A stretch of DNA of 30,664 bases from a virus (lineage: Duplodnaviria > Heunggongvirae > Uroviricota > Caudoviricetes): the IMG/VR virus record IMGVR_UViG_2802429251_000007, positions 1 through 30,664 of that record, one strand, 5' to 3'. Position 1 is the stretch's first letter. Every line of letters starts with the position of its first letter. Below, piece by piece: positions 1,160-30,664 of the stretch. The notes beneath the pieces were generated by a model, which saw only the letters and a list, made by a program, of their open reading frames with translations, was not told where the DNA came from and made no database searches. The translations under genes and the position numbers were made by a program.

Positions 1160-1277
1160 TGCTGCGGGTGCTTGAGGCTATCTACCTCGGGCATGAACAC
1201 CAACGGCAGATAGAGAAAAGCCCCAGTTAACATTACGCGTCCTGCAAGACGCTTAACATTAATCTGAGGCCAATTTC

Positions 1278-1490
1278 ATGCTAGACACATGTAGGTTAGC
1301 CTCTTACGTGCCGAAAGGCAAGGAGAAGCAGGCTATGAAGCAGCAAAAGGCGATGTTAATCGCCCTGATCGTCATCTGTTTAACCGTCATAGTGACGGCA
1401 CTGGCAACGAGGAAAGACCTCTGCGAGGTACGAATCCGTACCGGCCAGACGGAGGTCGCTGTCTTCGTAGACTACGAATCTAGAGAGTAA
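1278..1490 (+). CDS. mok: Mok-like reading frame, 70 aa. It is an in-frame N-terminal extension of the hok-like toxin, as MokC is for HokC.
   Basis: MLDTCRLASYVPKGKEKQA then MKQQKAM... mirrors the MokC layout MLNTCRVPLTDRKVKEKRAMKQHKAM... Confidence 0.5.
   Translation: MLDTCRLASYVPKGKEKQAMKQQKAMLIALIVICLTVIVTALATRKDLCEVRIRTGQTEVAVFVDYESRE
1335..1490 (+). CDS. hok: Hok/Gef-family type I toxin, 51 aa.
   Basis: MKQQKAMLIALIVICLTVIVTALATRKDLCEVRIRTGQTEVAVFVDYESRE is close to Gef/HokC (MKQHKAMIVALIVICITAVVAALVTRKDLCEVHIRTGQTEVAVFTAYESE). Confidence 0.85.
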   Translation: MKQQKAMLIALIVICLTVIVTALATRKDLCEVRIRTGQTEVAVFVDYESRE

Positions 1491-3385: not shown

Positions 3386-3411
3386 CTCAATCTGTTATCC
3401 GGGGCTATATT
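3382..3411 (+). promoter_or_regulatory. PR'-like late promoter: -35 TTGACT overlapping the Q stop, 18-nt spacer, -10 TATATT. Probable Q utilisation region.
   Basis: Hexamers read directly. Position after Q matches lambdoid PR'/qut. Confidence 0.45.
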
Positions 3412-3473
3412 CCTCACGCGCCAGCAAAATCTGGCGTCGGGATTGGCGTCCCGGATGTTTACGGAGCGATATG

Positions 3474-3495
3474 AGACGCGCCCGCGTCTTTTTTC
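3474..3495 (+). terminator. tR'-like rho-independent terminator. It would yield a short (about 75-nt) 6S-like late RNA unless Q acts.
   Basis: AGACGC-GCCC-GCGTCT stem-loop followed by TTTTTT. Confidence 0.6.
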
Positions 3496-3666
3496 ATATC
3501 GTTTGCACAGTCACATTCGCGATTTATGGCGGGCTGTGTGGGGGAGCCGAAAGGCTCGCCGGTTTCCGTACCCGGTTACGCCAACCCTGCACAGTTCGCC
3601 ACCAGTTCGATTGGCGTCGTCGGTGGCGATAATTTCCAAATGTACGGAGTTATCGTTATGACCACT

Positions 3667-3674: not shown

Positions 3675-3729
3675 GGTGATGCTGCCAACTTACTGATTTA
3701 GTGTATGATGGTGTTTTTGAGGTGCTCCA

Positions 3730-4005
3730 GTGGCTTCTGTTTCTATCAGCTGTCCCTCCTGTTCAGCTACTGACGGGGTGGTGCGTAACGGCAAAAGCAC
3801 CGCCGGACATCAGCGCTATCTCTGCTCTCACTGCCGTAAAACATGGCAACTGCAGTTCACTTACACCGCTTCTCAACCCGGTACGCACCAGAAAATCATT
3901 GATATGGCCATGAATGGCGTTGGATGCCGGGCAACTGCCCGCATTATGGGCGTTGGCCTCAACACGATTTTACGTCACTTAAAAAACTCAGGCCGCAGTC
4001 GGTAA
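3730..4005 (+). CDS. insA: IS1 InsA, 91 aa.
   Basis: [43 protein letters not shown]... is the canonical InsA sequence. Confidence 0.95.
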
Positions 4006-4427
4006 CCTCGCGCATACAGCCGGGCAGTGACGTCATCGTCTGCGCGGAAATGGACGAACAGTGGGGCTATGTCGGGGCTAAATCGCGCCAGCGCTGGCTG
4101 TTTTACGCGTATGACAGTCTCCGGAAGACGGTTGTTGCGCACGTATTCGGTGAACGCACTATGGCGACGCTGGGGCGTCTTATGAGCCTGCTGTCACCCT
4201 TTGACGTGGTGATATGGATGACGGATGGCTGGCCGCTGTATGAATCCCGCCTGAAGGGAAAGCTGCACGTAATCAGCAAACGATATACGCAGCGAATTGA
4301 GCGGCATAACCTGAATCTGAGGCAGCACCTGGCACGGCTGGGACGGAAGTCGCTGTCGTTCTCAAAATCGGTGGAGCTGCATGACAAAGTCATCGGGCAT
4401 TATCTGAACATAAAACACTATCAATAA
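3924..4427 (+). CDS. insB: IS1 InsB frame, expressed as an InsAB' fusion by -1 frameshifting at A-AAA-AAC (3981-3987).
   Basis: ...[45 protein letters not shown]... is the canonical InsB sequence. AAAAAAC present at 3981-3987. Confidence 0.9.
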
Positions 4428-4442
4428 GTTGGAGTCATTACC

Positions 4443-5354: not shown

Positions 5355-5430
<76 letters not shown>

Positions 5431-5433
5431 TAT

Positions 5434-5508
<75 letters not shown>

Positions 5509-26716: not shown

Positions 26717-27792
26717 TGGCAAAAAATGACTTTAAAGCATTCGCAACGGGTAAAAATGCCAATGTTATGCCGCAGGAGGAATGGGAAGCGTTGCCTGCGC
26801 TTTTATCCGGATTTACAGCAGGGAAAGCATCCAGTGCGCAAGTCAATAAGGTTATTCGGCAGGCCAGCTTTATTGCATCTGCAATAGCACAATATACAGC
26901 AAATGAAAGTGGACTGGATGTACAGGACGATGGCGATCAGGCCGGCTTTATCGCAAAAATGTCGTCTGCATTAGATAAGAACTATCAGAGAATTAATGCC
27001 ATACTTACCGCACTTGCTAATCTTTCAGCATCCGAAAACAAATTACCGTATTTTACCAATCAAGATACCGCTAATTTGGCTGACCTGACACAGGTTGGGC
27101 GAGATATTTTGGCAAAAAGCTCTGTTGCTGATGTCCTTAAATATCTTGGTCTGGAAGATAATTCGACCTTTCCTGTAGGTGCCCCGATCCCGTGGCCATC
27201 AGATACAGTTCCATCTGGTTATGCTCTGATGCAGGGACAGACTTTTGACAAGTCTGCATACCCGAAACTTGCAGCCGCTTATCCGTCAGGCGTGATCCCT
27301 GATATGCGTGGCTGGACGATTAAGGGCAAGCCCGCCAGTGGTCGTGCCGTATTGTCTCAGGAACAGGACGGCATTAAATCGCACACCCACAGCGCCAGCG
27401 TATCCAGTACGGATTTGGGTACGAAAACCACATCGTCGTTTGATTACGGGACGAAAACAACCTCACTATTTGACTATGGGACCAAAACTACCAGTAACGC
27501 CGGGAGTCACACGCATTCAATACCAACATCAGATGGTGCAAACCAGGGGGGGAAAATTCCACTGACATCTGGGCGTCTGGCAACTCAATATACATCAGCA
27601 ACAACAGGTTCCTCTGGCTCACATTCTCATACTGTAGGTATTGGTTCTCATCAGCACACTGTCGGTATTGGTGCACACACGCACTCCGTTGCGATTGGTT
27701 CACATGGACACACCATCACCGTTAACGCTGCTGGTAACGCGGAAAACACCGTCAAAAACATCGCATTTAACTATATTGTGAGGCTCGCATAA
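26716..27792 (+). CDS. Tail fibre protein with C-terminal HxH-repeat receptor-binding region.
   Basis: [36 protein letters not shown] repeats. TGATG-coupled start MAKNDFKAF. Confidence 0.8.
27413..27493 (+). repeat. Three imperfect tandem 27-nt repeats inside the tail fibre gene, encoding (L/F)DYGTKTTS.
   Basis: Peptide repeat [29 protein letters not shown] read from the translation. Confidence 0.6.
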
Positions 27793-28370
27793 TGGAATTC
27801 AGAATGAGTGAACAACCACAGACCATAAAAATTTATAATCTGCTGGCCGGAACTAATGAATTTATTGGTGAAGGTGATGCATACATTCCACCTCATACAG
27901 GTCTGCCAGCAAACAGTACCGATATTGCACCGCCAGATATTCCGGCTGGCTTCGTGGCTGTTTTCAACACTGATGAGGCATCGTGGCATCTCGTTGAAGA
28001 CCATCGGGGTAAAACCGTCTATGACGTGGCTTCCGGCGACGCGTTATTTATTTCTGAACTTGGCCCATTACCGGAAAATGTCACCTGGTTATCCCCGGAA
28101 GGGGAGTTTCAGAAGTGGAACGGTACATCTTGGGTGAAAGATGCAGAAGCAGAAAAACTGTTTCGGAGCCAGGAGGCGGAAGAAACAAAAAACAGCCTGA
28201 TGCAGGTAGCTAGCGAGCATATTGCGCCACTTCAGGATGCTGTAGATTTGGATATTGCGACGGAAGAAGAGGCATCGTTACTGGCTGCATGGAAGACATA
28301 TCGGGTATTGTTGAATCGTGTTGATACAACAGTAGCAGCGGATATTGAGTGGCCAGTCGCCCCACAATAA
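27792..28370 (+). CDS. tfa: Tail fibre assembly chaperone, lambda Tfa-like.
   Basis: [59 protein letters not shown]... is nearly collinear with lambda Tfa. Confidence 0.9.
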
Positions 28371-28413: not shown

Positions 28414-28986
28414 CTATTTATACAATACAACACCGCTCTTTTTAGTTATATATGTGCAGTTCGATGGTATATCTTTATTTATAAAAGACATTGCGCCTAT
28501 TTTTACATTATCCCCAATTTTACGTGATAATCCAATGATGCAACAATTAGCTCCGATATCAACGTTACTACCAATTTTTACTCTTGAACCAGGTATGTCA
28601 CCATCTATCTGTCCAATCGTAGTATTCTGTCGTAACACCAGATTTTCACCAGCATCAACAGCAAAATGAACAACAATTCCAGCGTGATGGGGAATTGTTA
28701 GCCCTTTTCCAATTTTTGCTCCCAGTCCAATCTCGCAACCAAATTTGTTAATTATTTTATTGTTTAACTTTTTAGCAGCTTTCTTATGTAATTTATTACC
28801 ATTAATATACATTTCGTTAGCCAGCCGCCACCAGAAAAGGAAATTCCTGTTACGTTGTTTTTTTTCTCTGAAAAGCCTCCAGATATCCATATACTCCCGC
28901 CGTATTACTTCAGATTTCCAAAAGCTTTTTAAATCAGAAGAATTCCCAAGTAAAACAAAATGAATTGCTATTAAGTAAGATAACAC
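28414..28986 (-). CDS. Hexapeptide-repeat (left-handed beta-helix) acetyltransferase, CysE/serine O-acetyltransferase-like, 190 aa. AT-rich cargo.
   Basis: IGLGAKIGKGLTIPHHAGIVV...IGSNVDIGANCCIIG...IGDNVKIGAMS are hexapeptide repeats with a CysE-like core. GTG start 6 nt after an AAGGAG Shine-Dalgarno. Very low GC. Confidence 0.7.
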   Translation of the reverse strand: MLSYLIAIHFVLLGNSSDLKSFWKSEVIRREYMDIWRLFREKKQRNRNFLFWWRLANEMYINGNKLHKKAAKKLNNKIINKFGCEIGLGAKIGKGLTIPHHAGIVVHFAVDAGENLVLRQNTTIGQIDGDIPGSRVKIGSNVDIGANCCIIGLSRKIGDNVKIGAMSFINKDIPSNCTYITKKSGVVLYK

Positions 28987-29138: not shown

Positions 29139-29267
29139 CAAACACCAGAACAATGGGCGCAGGCCGGGCGATTAATTGCATCAGGCGTTCCTCGCCAGAA
29201 GGTGGCTATTATCTATGATGTTGGTGTGTCAACTTTGTATAAGAGGTTTCCGGTCGGAGATAAATGA
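29139..29267 (+). pseudogene. pin: 3' remnant (about 42 codons) of a Pin/Gin/Hin-family DNA invertase: the C-terminal HTH only.
   Basis: Translation TPEQWAQAGRLIASGVPRQKVAIIYDVGVSTLYKRFPVGDK* closely matches the C-terminus of E. coli e14 Pin. Stop codons lie immediately upstream. Confidence 0.75.
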
Positions 29268-29564
29268 AACCGTAGCACGTCGTATGCAAGAACGTGCCAC
29301 GGCTGGCTGATGGACGTTCGATAGCGCGAGTTTGAATGAAAATCAGCCGGCGATGATTTTACATAATTGCTACGGAATTATTCAATACAGGAATTGCTTG
29401 TGTATGCATGGATTGACCTGAAATATTCCCGAAAATTTCTCTAAAAAACTCGAAAAAAATGGTAACTAATTGAATGCATTGGTATGCAATGCTATGTGTT
29501 CAGGATTGAAAAATGCGCGCTTTTTTATTTAATATATTGATTTTAAATGATTTTATTTCTCGTT

Positions 29565-29597
29565 GACGAATACAGGAATCGTGTTCGGTCTCTTTTT
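29565..29597 (+). ncRNA. sdsR: 3' terminator fragment of the sRNA SdsR (RyeB). Probable prophage attachment-site core and host junction.
   Basis: GACGAATACAGGAATCGTGTTCGGTCTCTTTTT matches the 3' end of E. coli SdsR (…GACCGAATACAGGAATCGTATTCGGTCTCTTTTT) with two differences. The upstream SdsR body is absent. pphA follows, as in E. coli K-12. Confidence 0.65.
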
Positions 29598-29731
29598 ATC
29601 TGTTAAAAGCCAGAAGCATTCCCTTCGCTGACTTTATAGTCAACCATAACACACACTCTACTGTCTGAGTCCAGCGTTTTTTAACATTCTTGTTAAGATT
29701 ATGTGATCTTTAGCGCGGGAGGAAAATATTG

Positions 29732-30388
29732 ATGAAACAGCCTGCGCCCGTTTATCAGAGAGTTGCGGGTCATCAATGGCGACATATCTGGCTTTCAGGC
29801 GATATACACGGTTGTCTTGAGCAGTTGCGCCGCAAATTATGGCATTGTCGTTTTGATCCGTGGCGAGATTTACTTATCTCAGTGGGAGACGTTATCGATC
29901 GTGGGCCGCAAAGTTTACGTTGCCTGCAGTTACTGGAACAACATTGGGTTCGTGCGGTAAGAGGCAATCATGAACAGATGGCGATGGATGCGCTGGCATC
30001 CCAGCAGATGTCATTGTGGTTGATGAATGGCGGCGACTGGTTTATTGCGCTGGCAGATAATCAACAGAAACAAGCGAAAACGGCGCTGGAAAAATGTCAG
30101 TATTTGCCCTTTATTCTTGAAGTACACAGTCGCACCGGCAAACATGTTATTGCCCATGCCGATTATCCGGATGATGTTTATGAATGGCAAAAGGACGTCG
30201 ATTTGCATCAGGTCTTGTGGAGCCGCTCACGATTACGTGAAGGCCAAAAAGGGCAGGGAATTACAGGTGCTGATCATTTCTGGTTTGGTCATACACCGTT
30301 GCGCCATCGCGTGGATATTGGCAACCTGCATTATATTGATACCGGTGCTGTCTTTGGGGGAGAACTGACTCTTGTGCAATTGCAATAA
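29732..30388 (+). CDS. pphA: Serine/threonine protein phosphatase 1 (host gene).
   Basis: MKQPAPVYQRVAGHQWRHIWLSGDIHGCLEQLRRKLWHCRFDPW... is near-identical to E. coli PphA/PrpA. GGGAGG Shine-Dalgarno. Confidence 0.95.
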   Translation: MKQPAPVYQRVAGHQWRHIWLSGDIHGCLEQLRRKLWHCRFDPWRDLLISVGDVIDRGPQSLRCLQLLEQHWVRAVRGNHEQMAMDALASQQMSLWLMNGGDWFIALADNQQKQAKTALEKCQYLPFILEVHSRTGKHVIAHADYPDDVYEWQKDVDLHQVLWSRSRLREGQKGQGITGADHFWFGHTPLRHRVDIGNLHYIDTGAVFGGELTLVQLQ

Positions 30389-30580
30389 TTAAAAATCACC
30401 GTACTCCTGTGCAGGTCGCCAGAAACCATCTATAAAATCCTCAATCGGAAAACAACCGCCATGGCGGATCCGTTGATCGCTCATAGAATAAAGACACTGT
30501 TGTTCCGTGTTGTAGACATCCACAACAATATCTTCACAACCGCCATCCAGGTAGCAAACAAAAAGTACCAGCGCGAACAT
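30389..30580 (-). CDS. yebW: Host small protein YebW, 63 aa.
   Basis: MFALVLFVCYLDGGCEDIVVDVYNTEQQCLYSMSDQRIRHGGCFPIEDFIDGFWRPAQEYGDF matches E. coli YebW. Convergent with pphA. Confidence 0.85.
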   Translation of the reverse strand: MFALVLFVCYLDGGCEDIVVDVYNTEQQCLYSMSDQRIRHGGCFPIEDFIDGFWRPAQEYGDF

Positions 30581-30664
30581 TTCATCCCCGAAGTGTGGTG
30601 CCGTACCGTTAAGTTTAGGAGAGATTTTACAACGGGGGAATAACCAGGACAAATAACCCGCCAT

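What the first reader, a model, noticed from the sequence alone, without database searches (positions are those of the whole stretch)
29268..29728. Prophage boundary inside the sdsR (ryeB) 3' terminator, upstream of host pphA
Just upstream of pphA the sequence carries only the last 33 nt of SdsR (the terminator hairpin plus U-tract) with two differences from the K-12 sequence. It is directly preceded by AT-rich non-host DNA and the pin remnant. This pattern fits site-specific integration into the 3' end of sdsR, a documented insertion hotspot in Salmonella and E. coli. The phage would supply a replacement 3' end at the other junction.

The antisense RyeA/SraC promoter region lies host-side. 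A RyeA transcript would therefore run into prophage DNA, so its sequence and its ability to act on SdsR would change in lysogens.
Basis: partly seen in the sequence, partly recalled or inferred. Interest (0 to 1): 0.55.

Follow-up and report, generated by a model that had tools for sequence, protein, structure and literature searches.

The report
Prophage right end inside sdsR terminator
This is the right-hand junction (attR) of a prophage that inserted into the last ~30 bases of the small-RNA gene sdsR (ryeB), just upstream of pphA; the reading is correct, but this insertion hot spot is already documented.

Summary
Window 29565-29597 matches the last 33 nt of K-12 sdsR with two differences, at 29565 and 29566. 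Bases 29567-29597 are identical, and host synteny (ryeA 5' end and promoter, pphA, yebW) continues from 29567 to the window end. Upstream lies phage DNA: a 42-codon pin HTH remnant, a hairpin and a 255-bp AT-rich arm.

That arm is the P arm of a lambda-type attP. Two attP-bearing records carry arm, core, P' arm and a 358-aa integrase in that order. In two complete E. coli genomes with a related ~42-kb prophage between pphA and yebY, the other junction has integrase, excisionase and a complete sdsR with a phage-supplied 3' end. The crossover interval in the window is 29567-29582.

Of 5426 complete E. coli genomes, 237 have the site split. 228 carry this P arm at attR, and 228 carry the matching attL.

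The native ryeA start maps to 29635 on the minus strand. Its transcript therefore keeps only 69 host nt before entering phage DNA. pphA is also cut off from the sdsR promoter.

The window's own attL is out of reach because its contig ends 78 nt before the window start. The site and its effect on RyeA were described for Salmonella in 2008, so interest is low.

The parts
29139..29267 (+). Remnant of a pin/gin-type DNA invertase gene: the last 42 codons plus the stop (TGA 29265-29267). Only the C-terminal helix-turn-helix is left.
   Evidence: Pfam HTH_7, E 1.9e-10. Related prophages carry a full pinE at this position. RefSeq annotates the equivalent stretch in RM8082 and 13E0780 as an incomplete HTH protein missing its N-terminus.
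29270..29302 (.). Strong hairpin directly after the pin stop codon. It is probably the pin terminator. On the minus strand it is the first strong hairpin with a partly U-rich tail in the path of a transcript entering from the ryeA promoter.
   Evidence: Present in both the MFE and centroid folds of the minus-strand RNA. It accounts for the partial, subthreshold CssrB hit (29.6 bits against 76). It is conserved at the start of the P arm in L012.
29312..29566 (.). Phage P arm of attP (the POB' side of attR). It is AT-rich and non-coding, and it travels with the integrase module rather than with the tail module.
   Evidence: 81.8% identical to PP818812.1, where it lies immediately before core, P' arm and int; the same layout is seen in IMG/VR L012. 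228 of 5426 E. coli genomes carry it next to pphA, and 228 carry the matching attL. Prophages with the same tail, acetyltransferase and pin-remnant module at the yfhH site lose homology at 29311.
29384..29394 (+). Second exact copy of AATACAGGAAT, the left half of the core, lying 185 bp upstream in the P arm. It may be an accessory recombinase-binding site; this is inference.
   Evidence: the repeat finder family D3 in the window. The same arrangement is conserved in L012 (2159-2169 and 2344-2354).
29565..29597 (+). 3' fragment of sdsR (33 nt): terminator hairpin plus U tract. The hairpin is weakened because the phage-derived left side lacks one C.
   Evidence: Alignment to K-12. Predicted hairpin energy is -7.8 kcal/mol against -15.4 for intact sdsR. 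The terminator scan lists 29567-29587.
29567..29582 (.). Interval in which strand exchange must have happened (CGAATACAGGAATCGT). The sequence here is identical in host attB and in this phage's arm.
   Evidence: To the left, 29565-29566 are phage-type. To the right, 29583 (G) and 29592 (C) are host-type, where attP and attL have A and T. In AH19B041 and RM8082 an extra A/T difference narrows the interval to ACAGGAATCGT.
29598..29635 (-). Host-encoded 5' end of RyeA/SraC. The transcription start maps to 29635. The transcript runs leftward through 29597-29567 (antisense to the SdsR terminator) and then into the phage P arm.
   Evidence: K-12 ryeA is annotated at 1923066-1923337, starting 38 nt beyond the sdsR 3' end. 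The coordinate was transferred from the gap-free alignment. The sigma70 ryeA promoter and its start sites were mapped experimentally in PMC6610125.
29636..29680 (-). ryeA promoter region, host-side and intact.
   Evidence: Identical to K-12 across this stretch (columns 451-500).
29732..30388 (+). pphA (phosphoprotein phosphatase 1), the first host gene after the junction.
   Evidence: ORF list. Pfam Metallophos, E 7.7e-15. Annotated as pphA in K-12 and in all matching genomes.

Best explanation
The segment is attR (POB') of a temperate, SEN34-like myovirus with a lambdoid early region. The phage integrated by Campbell-type recombination, catalysed by a lambda/HK022-family tyrosine integrase, into the Rho-independent terminator of the host small-RNA gene sdsR (ryeB).

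Strand exchange occurred within CGAATACAGGAATCGT (29567-29582). Everything to the left is phage DNA: the P arm, a hairpin and a pin remnant. Everything to the right is host DNA: the rest of the sdsR terminator, the ryeA 5' end and promoter on the minus strand, and pphA.

At the other junction (attL, not in the window) the phage P' arm restores a complete sdsR. Its terminator differs from K-12 at two positions, G to A in the stem and C to U in the tail, with unchanged predicted stability.

Three consequences follow by inference from published K-12 data.
(a) The convergent sdsR and ryeA promoters are now about 42 kb apart, which should abolish transcriptional interference between them.
(b) The native ryeA promoter makes a chimeric RNA with 69 host nt. 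Only 31 of those can pair with SdsR, and the rest of the RNA is phage P-arm sequence.
(c) pphA loses read-through transcription from the sigmaS-dependent sdsR promoter.
For: - Junction position: host identity begins at exactly 29567 in alignments and in all 5198 genomes that lack this arm.
- Phage origin of the left side: the window holds terminase, portal, tail and baseplate genes similar to induced E. coli phages and Salmonella phage SEN34. The P arm is homologous to attP of PP818812.1 and an IMG/VR contig, each followed by core, P' arm and a 358-aa int.
- Campbell topology in relatives: in AH19B041 and RM8082, attL joins the host sdsR body to the phage P' arm, and attR joins the phage P arm to the host. 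Integrase and excisionase genes lie next to yebY.
- Integrase family: Arm-DNA-bind_1, Phage_int_M and Phage_integrase domains, with about 41% identity to HK022 Int.
- Population data: attB is intact in 5189 of 5426 genomes and split in 237. 228 have this attL and 228 have this P arm at attR.
- Terminator energies: attB -15.4, attL -15.4 and window attR remnant -7.8 kcal/mol.
- ryeA start and promoter.
- pphA dependence on the sdsR promoter, and interference from the ryeA promoter: PMC6610125.
- Prior description of the hot spot and of altered ryeA and ryeB expression in lysogens: PMC7380047, PMC3333887 and PMC3603311, all citing Balbontin et al. 2008.
Against: - The window's own attL and integrase were not seen. 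The source contig (GCA_002966045.1, PTRX01000003.1) ends 78 nt before the window start, so completeness and excision competence of this particular prophage are unknown.
- The prophage carries an IS1 insertion (from 3675) and a truncated pin, so it may be defective.
- The window's P arm is a divergent variant, with a best match of 91.8% among complete E. coli genomes.
- All transcriptional consequences are inferred from K-12 and Salmonella literature, not measured.
- No minus-strand terminator was called by the consensus scan in the P arm. The chimeric RyeA fold is no more stable than shuffled sequence (z -0.92), so its 3' end is uncertain.
Confidence: 0.93

Rival explanations
1. The junction is a fossil. 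The element is a defective, immobile prophage remnant inherited vertically, so the segment no longer works as an att site. The junction would still have arisen by the same integration.
For: There is an IS1 insertion in the late-regulatory region, with the left inverted repeat at 3675-3697 and InsA/InsB ORFs. pin is reduced to 42 codons and the invertible tail-fibre segment is replaced by an acetyltransferase gene. The assembly breaks inside the prophage.
Against: The 29.5 kb seen carries an apparently complete lysis, head, tail and baseplate gene set. The same acetyltransferase and pin-remnant module occurs in otherwise full-length ~42-kb prophages that have int and xis, for example RM8082. 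Losing pin only locks the tail-fibre orientation and does not affect excision.
Confidence: 0.3
2. The junction arose by illegitimate recombination or an IS-mediated deletion that removed the sdsR body, not by integrase-mediated insertion at a defined core.
For: IS1 is present elsewhere in the prophage, and the window's own attL was not seen.
Against: The break lies in the same core as in 228 other genomes. The phage side is collinear with attP P arms right up to the core. No IS end or target duplication is present at 29567.
Confidence: 0.03
3. The junction is an assembly chimera that joins phage and host reads through a short shared repeat.
For: The source is a draft assembly whose contig ends within the prophage.
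Against: The same architecture (P arm, core, pphA) is present in 228 closed genomes, including one with the same acetyltransferase and pin-remnant module (RM8082).
Confidence: 0.01

Closest known systems
The ryeA/ryeB (SraC/SdsR) insertion hot spot of Salmonella enterica, including phage PhiW104 of DT104 (Balbontin et al. 2008, J Bacteriol 190:4075). The paper itself is not held; it is known here through PMC7380047, PMC3333887 and PMC3603311.
   Same: The target is the same: the last ~23 bp of ryeB/sdsR, meaning the terminator, which is internal to ryeA. The logic is also the same. The phage regenerates the sRNA 3' end, ryeA sequence and expression change in lysogens, and the site is used repeatedly.
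   Different: The host here is E. coli (or Shigella) and the downstream neighbour is pphA. The E. coli attB differs from the phage-type core at two positions, so SdsR in lysogens changes by two bases. The phage is a SEN34-like myovirus with a Rac-like early region in relatives. Whether its integrase is orthologous to that of PhiW104 was not tested; the nearest Salmonella hit is 74% identical.
Lambda/HK022 Int-Xis integration (Campbell model with arm-type sites)
   Same: The integrase of related prophages has the lambda arm-binding, central and catalytic domains and about 41% identity to HK022 Int. An excisionase gene lies beside it. The layout is P arm (~255-300 bp), core, short P' arm, then int reading toward the core.
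   Different: The core lies in an sRNA terminator rather than between gal and bio. Arm-type, IHF and Xis sites were not mapped; only repeated motifs were seen.
Phages and islands that integrate into the 3' ends of tRNA, tmRNA or sRNA genes and duplicate the 3' end
   Same: The target is a conserved, hairpin-forming RNA gene end, and the gene is restored by phage sequence at attL.
   Different: This locus is bidirectional. Restoring sdsR does not restore the antisense partner ryeA or the sdsR-pphA read-through transcript.

Membership tests
Prophage attR at the sdsR/ryeB terminator hot spot | Host sequence resumes inside the sdsR terminator and continues in synteny with the normal downstream gene. 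| tested here: met
   29567 onward matches K-12 through ryeA 5' end, pphA and yebW. All genomes without the arm match only from 29567.
Prophage attR at the sdsR/ryeB terminator hot spot | The DNA on the other side of the core is the phage attP arm, contiguous with core, P' arm and int in the unintegrated phage. | tested here: met
   PP818812.1 and IMG/VR UViG_2690316286_000019.
Prophage attR at the sdsR/ryeB terminator hot spot | A matching attL exists with a complete sdsR, a repeated core and an adjacent tyrosine integrase in the same genome. | not testable with these tools
   The source contig ends 78 nt upstream of the window. The feature is met in relatives AH19B041 and RM8082, and 228 genomes carry this attL type.
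Prophage attR at the sdsR/ryeB terminator hot spot | The element can excise and regenerate attB and attP. | not testable with these tools
   This needs induction followed by PCR or sequencing.
SdsR_RyeB RNA (Rfam RF00111) | Full-length sRNA scoring at or above the gathering score (38 bits). | tested here: not met
   30.3 bits, with only the terminator hairpin aligned and no hit at gathering threshold. The window holds a 33-nt fragment, not an sdsR gene.
SraC/RyeA RNA (Rfam RF00101) | Full-length antisense RNA scoring at or above the gathering score (37 bits). | tested here: not met
   32.2 bits, with large deletions in the alignment. Only the first 69 nt (29635-29567) are host RyeA sequence.
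Lambda-family tyrosine integrase (integrase of related prophages) | Arm-binding N-terminal domain, central domain and catalytic domain. | tested here: met
   PF09003, PF22022 and PF00589 in the AH19B041 and pPE4 integrases. This was tested on relatives, not on the window.
Pin/Gin/Hin DNA invertase | N-terminal serine-recombinase catalytic domain plus C-terminal HTH. | tested here: not met
   Only the 42-aa HTH_7 part remains. An acetyltransferase gene on the opposite strand lies upstream.

The most novel reading that the evidence does not exclude
Integration at this bidirectional locus may do more than leave sdsR intact: it may rewire a three-part host circuit and tie the phage to it.

(i) The native sigma70 ryeA promoter would produce a new chimeric RNA of 69 host nt plus phage P-arm sequence. 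That RNA runs toward the acetyltransferase gene, which lies on the same strand.

(iii) At attL, int is transcribed toward the core. Int transcripts, or transcripts from a promoter-like site in the P' arm, would then carry an anti-SdsR 3' region. SdsR pairing and RNase III cleavage could make integrase expression depend on growth phase. This would resemble lambda sib retroregulation, with a host sRNA in the sib role.

Point (iii) lies outside the window and is pure inference.
Probability: 0.15. Interest if true: 0.55.

Novelty: already known. Interest (0 to 1): 0.15.

Why it matters
About 4% of complete E. coli genomes (237 of 5426) carry an insertion at this site. In those strains the SdsR/RyeA toxin-antitoxin-like pair and pphA are wired differently from K-12. 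SdsR has a two-base variant 3' end, the convergent promoters are separated by about 42 kb, and pphA is detached from the sdsR promoter. This matters when sRNA regulation worked out in K-12 is applied to wild isolates, and for annotation, because the 33-nt remnant should not be called sdsR. It adds no new principle: the hot spot and its effect on RyeA and RyeB were described in Salmonella in 2008.

Tried and rejected
- Rfam at gathering threshold found no SdsR or RyeA. The permissive search gave only subthreshold, hairpin-only matches. The other weak hits there (snoR27, a CRISPR repeat and others, E above 5) were dismissed as chance.
- Balbontin et al. 2008 (PMC2395037) is not held, so its content is cited only through later papers.
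- I tried to reach the window's own attL through the exact-protein look-up. The source contig starts 78 nt before the window, and the other contigs are short.
- A scan of one genome per species (GTDB representatives) for a 42-nt attL string found nothing, so the range across species was not established.
- I looked for a minus-strand terminator for the chimeric RyeA and for a back-up terminator in the P' arm. The consensus scans called none, and the chimeric RNA folds no better than shuffles.
- A promoter-like site on the plus strand at 29506-29535 that could feed pphA, and one on the minus strand in the P' arm of pPE4, are single 9-of-12 consensus matches at roughly chance frequency. Neither is claimed as a promoter.
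- Possible arm-type sites (CCCGAAA-like repeats and the AATACAGGAAT copy) were noted but not tested statistically beyond the repeat finder.
- Two script calls failed or only listed files, one region request exceeded the size limit, and one Pfam call had a frame error.

Full report
**1. What is in the sequence**

The segment 29268-29728 lies between the end of a prophage tail module and the host gene pphA (29732-30388; Metallophos). I aligned it with the K-12 yebY-sdsR-pphA region (NC_000913.3). From window 29567 onward the two sequences are collinear and almost identical. Upstream of 29567 there is no similarity to the sdsR body.

The last 33 nt of K-12 sdsR align without gaps to 29565-29597. 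Rfam confirms that only a fragment is present. SdsR_RyeB scores 30.3 bits against a threshold of 38, and SraC_RyeA scores 32.2 against 37. In both cases only the terminator hairpin aligns well (nothing at gathering score).

The upstream DNA is AT-rich, with GC 0.31-0.38. It contains three features:
- a 42-codon remnant of a pin-type invertase gene at 29139-29264 (HTH_7, E 1.9e-10, no catalytic domain);
- a strong hairpin at 29270-29302;
- a 255-bp non-coding stretch at 29312-29566.

**2. What the non-coding stretch is**

It is the P arm of a phage attP. Three results support this.
- In the deposited phage genome PP818812.1, a stretch 81.8% identical to window 29275-29598 is followed directly by a short second arm and a 358-aa integrase gene reading toward it.
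- An IMG/VR viral contig has the same layout, including the hairpin.
- Prophages with the same tail-fibre, acetyltransferase and pin-remnant module at a different chromosomal site (next to yfhH) lose homology to the window at 29311. The arm therefore belongs with the integration module, not the tail module.

**3. The other junction, seen in relatives**

Strains AH19B041 and RM8082 each carry a ~42-kb prophage between pphA and yebY. RM8082 has the same acetyltransferase and pin-remnant arrangement as the window. Integrase and excisionase genes lie next to yebY.

Their attL is the complete sdsR body followed by CAGGAATCGT-ATTCGGTCTTTTTTTAATTG..., which is the phage P' arm. Their attR is the phage P arm followed by CAGGAATCGT-GTTCGGTCTCTTTTTATCTG..., which is host sequence. 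This is the Campbell arrangement, attP x attB giving attL + attR.

Diagnostic differences between attP and attB confine strand exchange to ACAGGAATCGT in those strains. In the window they confine it to CGAATACAGGAATCGT (29567-29582).

The integrase has the lambda arm-binding, central and catalytic domains. It is about 41% identical to HK022 Int, 97.5% to the PP818812.1 integrase and 74% to one in a Salmonella prophage record.

**4. How common it is**

The counts below are out of 5426 complete E. coli genomes.

| Feature | Genomes |
|---|---|
| sdsR-pphA attB region uninterrupted | 5189 |
| attB region split | 237 |
| sdsR + P' arm + int junction (attL) | 228 |
| P arm + core next to pphA (attR) | 228 |
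| attR arm also preceded by pin, as in the window | 50 |

All genomes without the arm match the window only from 29567 onward. The window's arm is a divergent variant, with a best match of 91.8%.

**5. Consequences for the RNAs**

Shown:
- The terminator hairpin of SdsR is predicted at -15.4 kcal/mol both in K-12 and in the attL version. The attL version differs by G to A in the stem and C to U in the tail.
- The remnant in the window folds at only -7.8 kcal/mol because the phage-derived left side lacks one C. In AH19B041 and RM8082 the remnant hairpin is essentially lost, at -4.5 kcal/mol.
- K-12 ryeA begins 38 nt beyond the sdsR 3' end. That position maps to window 29635 on the minus strand, and the promoter region is identical to K-12.

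Inferred:
- A transcript from this sigma70 promoter keeps 69 host nt (29635-29567). Only the last 31 are complementary to SdsR, and the transcript then continues into the P arm.
- The first strong hairpin in its path is 29302-29270. No consensus terminator was called there.
- The RyeA sequence complementary to the SdsR body stays at attL without its native promoter. This agrees with a review of the 2008 Salmonella study, which reports a modified 5' portion of ryeA, lower ryeA expression and higher ryeB expression in lysogens (PMC7380047).
- In K-12, pphA is transcribed mainly by read-through from the sigmaS-dependent sdsR promoter, and ryeA transcription interferes with sdsR transcription (PMC6610125). 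Both links should be broken when about 42 kb of prophage separates the two promoters.

**6. Limits**

The window's own attL and integrase were not seen. The exact-protein look-up places the window on contig PTRX01000003.1 of GCA_002966045.1, starting 78 nt from the contig end. The prophage carries an IS1 (left end at 3675-3697) and a truncated pin, so it may be defective. A scan of species-representative genomes for the attL string found nothing.

**7. Comparison with what is known, and verdict**

Three papers cite Balbontin et al. 2008 for integration of phages into the last 23 bp of ryeB: PMC7380047, PMC3333887 and PMC3603311. The first also reports altered ryeA and ryeB expression in lysogens. 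The second reports repeated use of the site during Salmonella evolution. "RyeB" is also used as an integration-site label for a prophage in PMC10111431.

The feature is an ordinary, already documented kind of prophage junction. The additions here are:
- the exact crossover interval;
- attP evidence from a deposited phage genome and a viral contig;
- the frequency in E. coli;
- the weakened remnant hairpin;
- the likely uncoupling of pphA from the sdsR promoter.

Noticed in passing
window 3675-4442 (left inverted repeat 3675-3697; InsA ORF 3730-4005; InsB-like ORF 3924-4427): An IS1 copy is inserted in the prophage just downstream of the C4/isrK-like RNA region and upstream of an ORF6N gene. 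It may disable late-gene expression. The right end (4442) is inferred from the usual 768-bp IS1 length; the right inverted repeat was not matched.
   Followed up: partly
window 3405-3606: Rfam hits above threshold for isrK (3418-3494), C4 antisense RNA (3522-3606) and its a1/b1 targets (3405-3457). This is a P1/P7-type immI-like antirepressor control region, like the Gifsy-1 isrK locus, inside a lambdoid-type prophage.
   Followed up: no
window 1166-1490: A hok/sok type I toxin-antitoxin pair: sok RNA at 1166-1340 (108.6 bits) overlapping a Hok ORF at 1278-1490.
   Followed up: no
window 5355-5508: Two phage-borne tRNA genes, tRNA-Thr(TGT) and tRNA-Gly(TCC), side by side.
   Followed up: no
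window 28135-28333: A full-length, high-scoring match to Rfam 'IS009' (189 bits) lies entirely inside the tail-fibre assembly gene (27792-28370). This Rfam family may therefore describe a coding region of phage tail-fibre assembly genes rather than a free-standing RNA gene.
   Followed up: no
window 28414-28986 (minus strand): A low-GC (0.33-0.37) hexapeptide-repeat acetyltransferase gene, annotated 'serine acetyltransferase' in RefSeq, occupies the place of the invertible alternative tail-fibre segment and most of pin. The same module is 98% identical in prophages at a different att site (yfhH), so it moves with the tail module. It lies on the same strand as transcription entering from the host ryeA promoter.
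   Followed up: partly
window 29241-29301: A subthreshold match to the Shigella sRNA family CssrB (29.6 bits against 76) covers only the hairpin after the pin stop codon. This suggests the CssrB 3' end is a pin-type terminator.
   Followed up: no
window 29384-29394 and 29569-29579; L012 2159-2169 and 2344-2354; L012 2433-2444 (inverted): The left half of the core (AATACAGGAAT) is repeated exactly 185 bp upstream in the P arm, and in inverted form in the P' arm of attP. The right-half motif CGGTCTTTTTT recurs 85 bp into the P' arm. These may be recombinase or accessory sites.
   Followed up: partly
L007 4325-4352 (minus strand), P' arm of attP in PP818812.1: A promoter-like site (TTTGCA-16-TACAAT) points across the core. 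At attL it would start an RNA antisense to SdsR with a phage-derived 5' end. It is a single consensus match at roughly chance frequency.
   Followed up: no
PP818812.1 (L007): A record named 'Actinobacillus phage vB_Apl-pPE4' carries an integrase 97.5% identical to those of E. coli sdsR-site prophages, an attP matching the E. coli/Salmonella sdsR terminator, and 94% nucleotide identity to the window's early region. The stated host looks doubtful.
   Followed up: no
window 1 and 30664; L008 1-78: Both window ends coincide with ORF starts (1-792 on the plus strand, 30389-30664 on the minus strand). The source contig begins only 78 nt before the window, so the draft assembly breaks inside the prophage early region.
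   Followed up: partly
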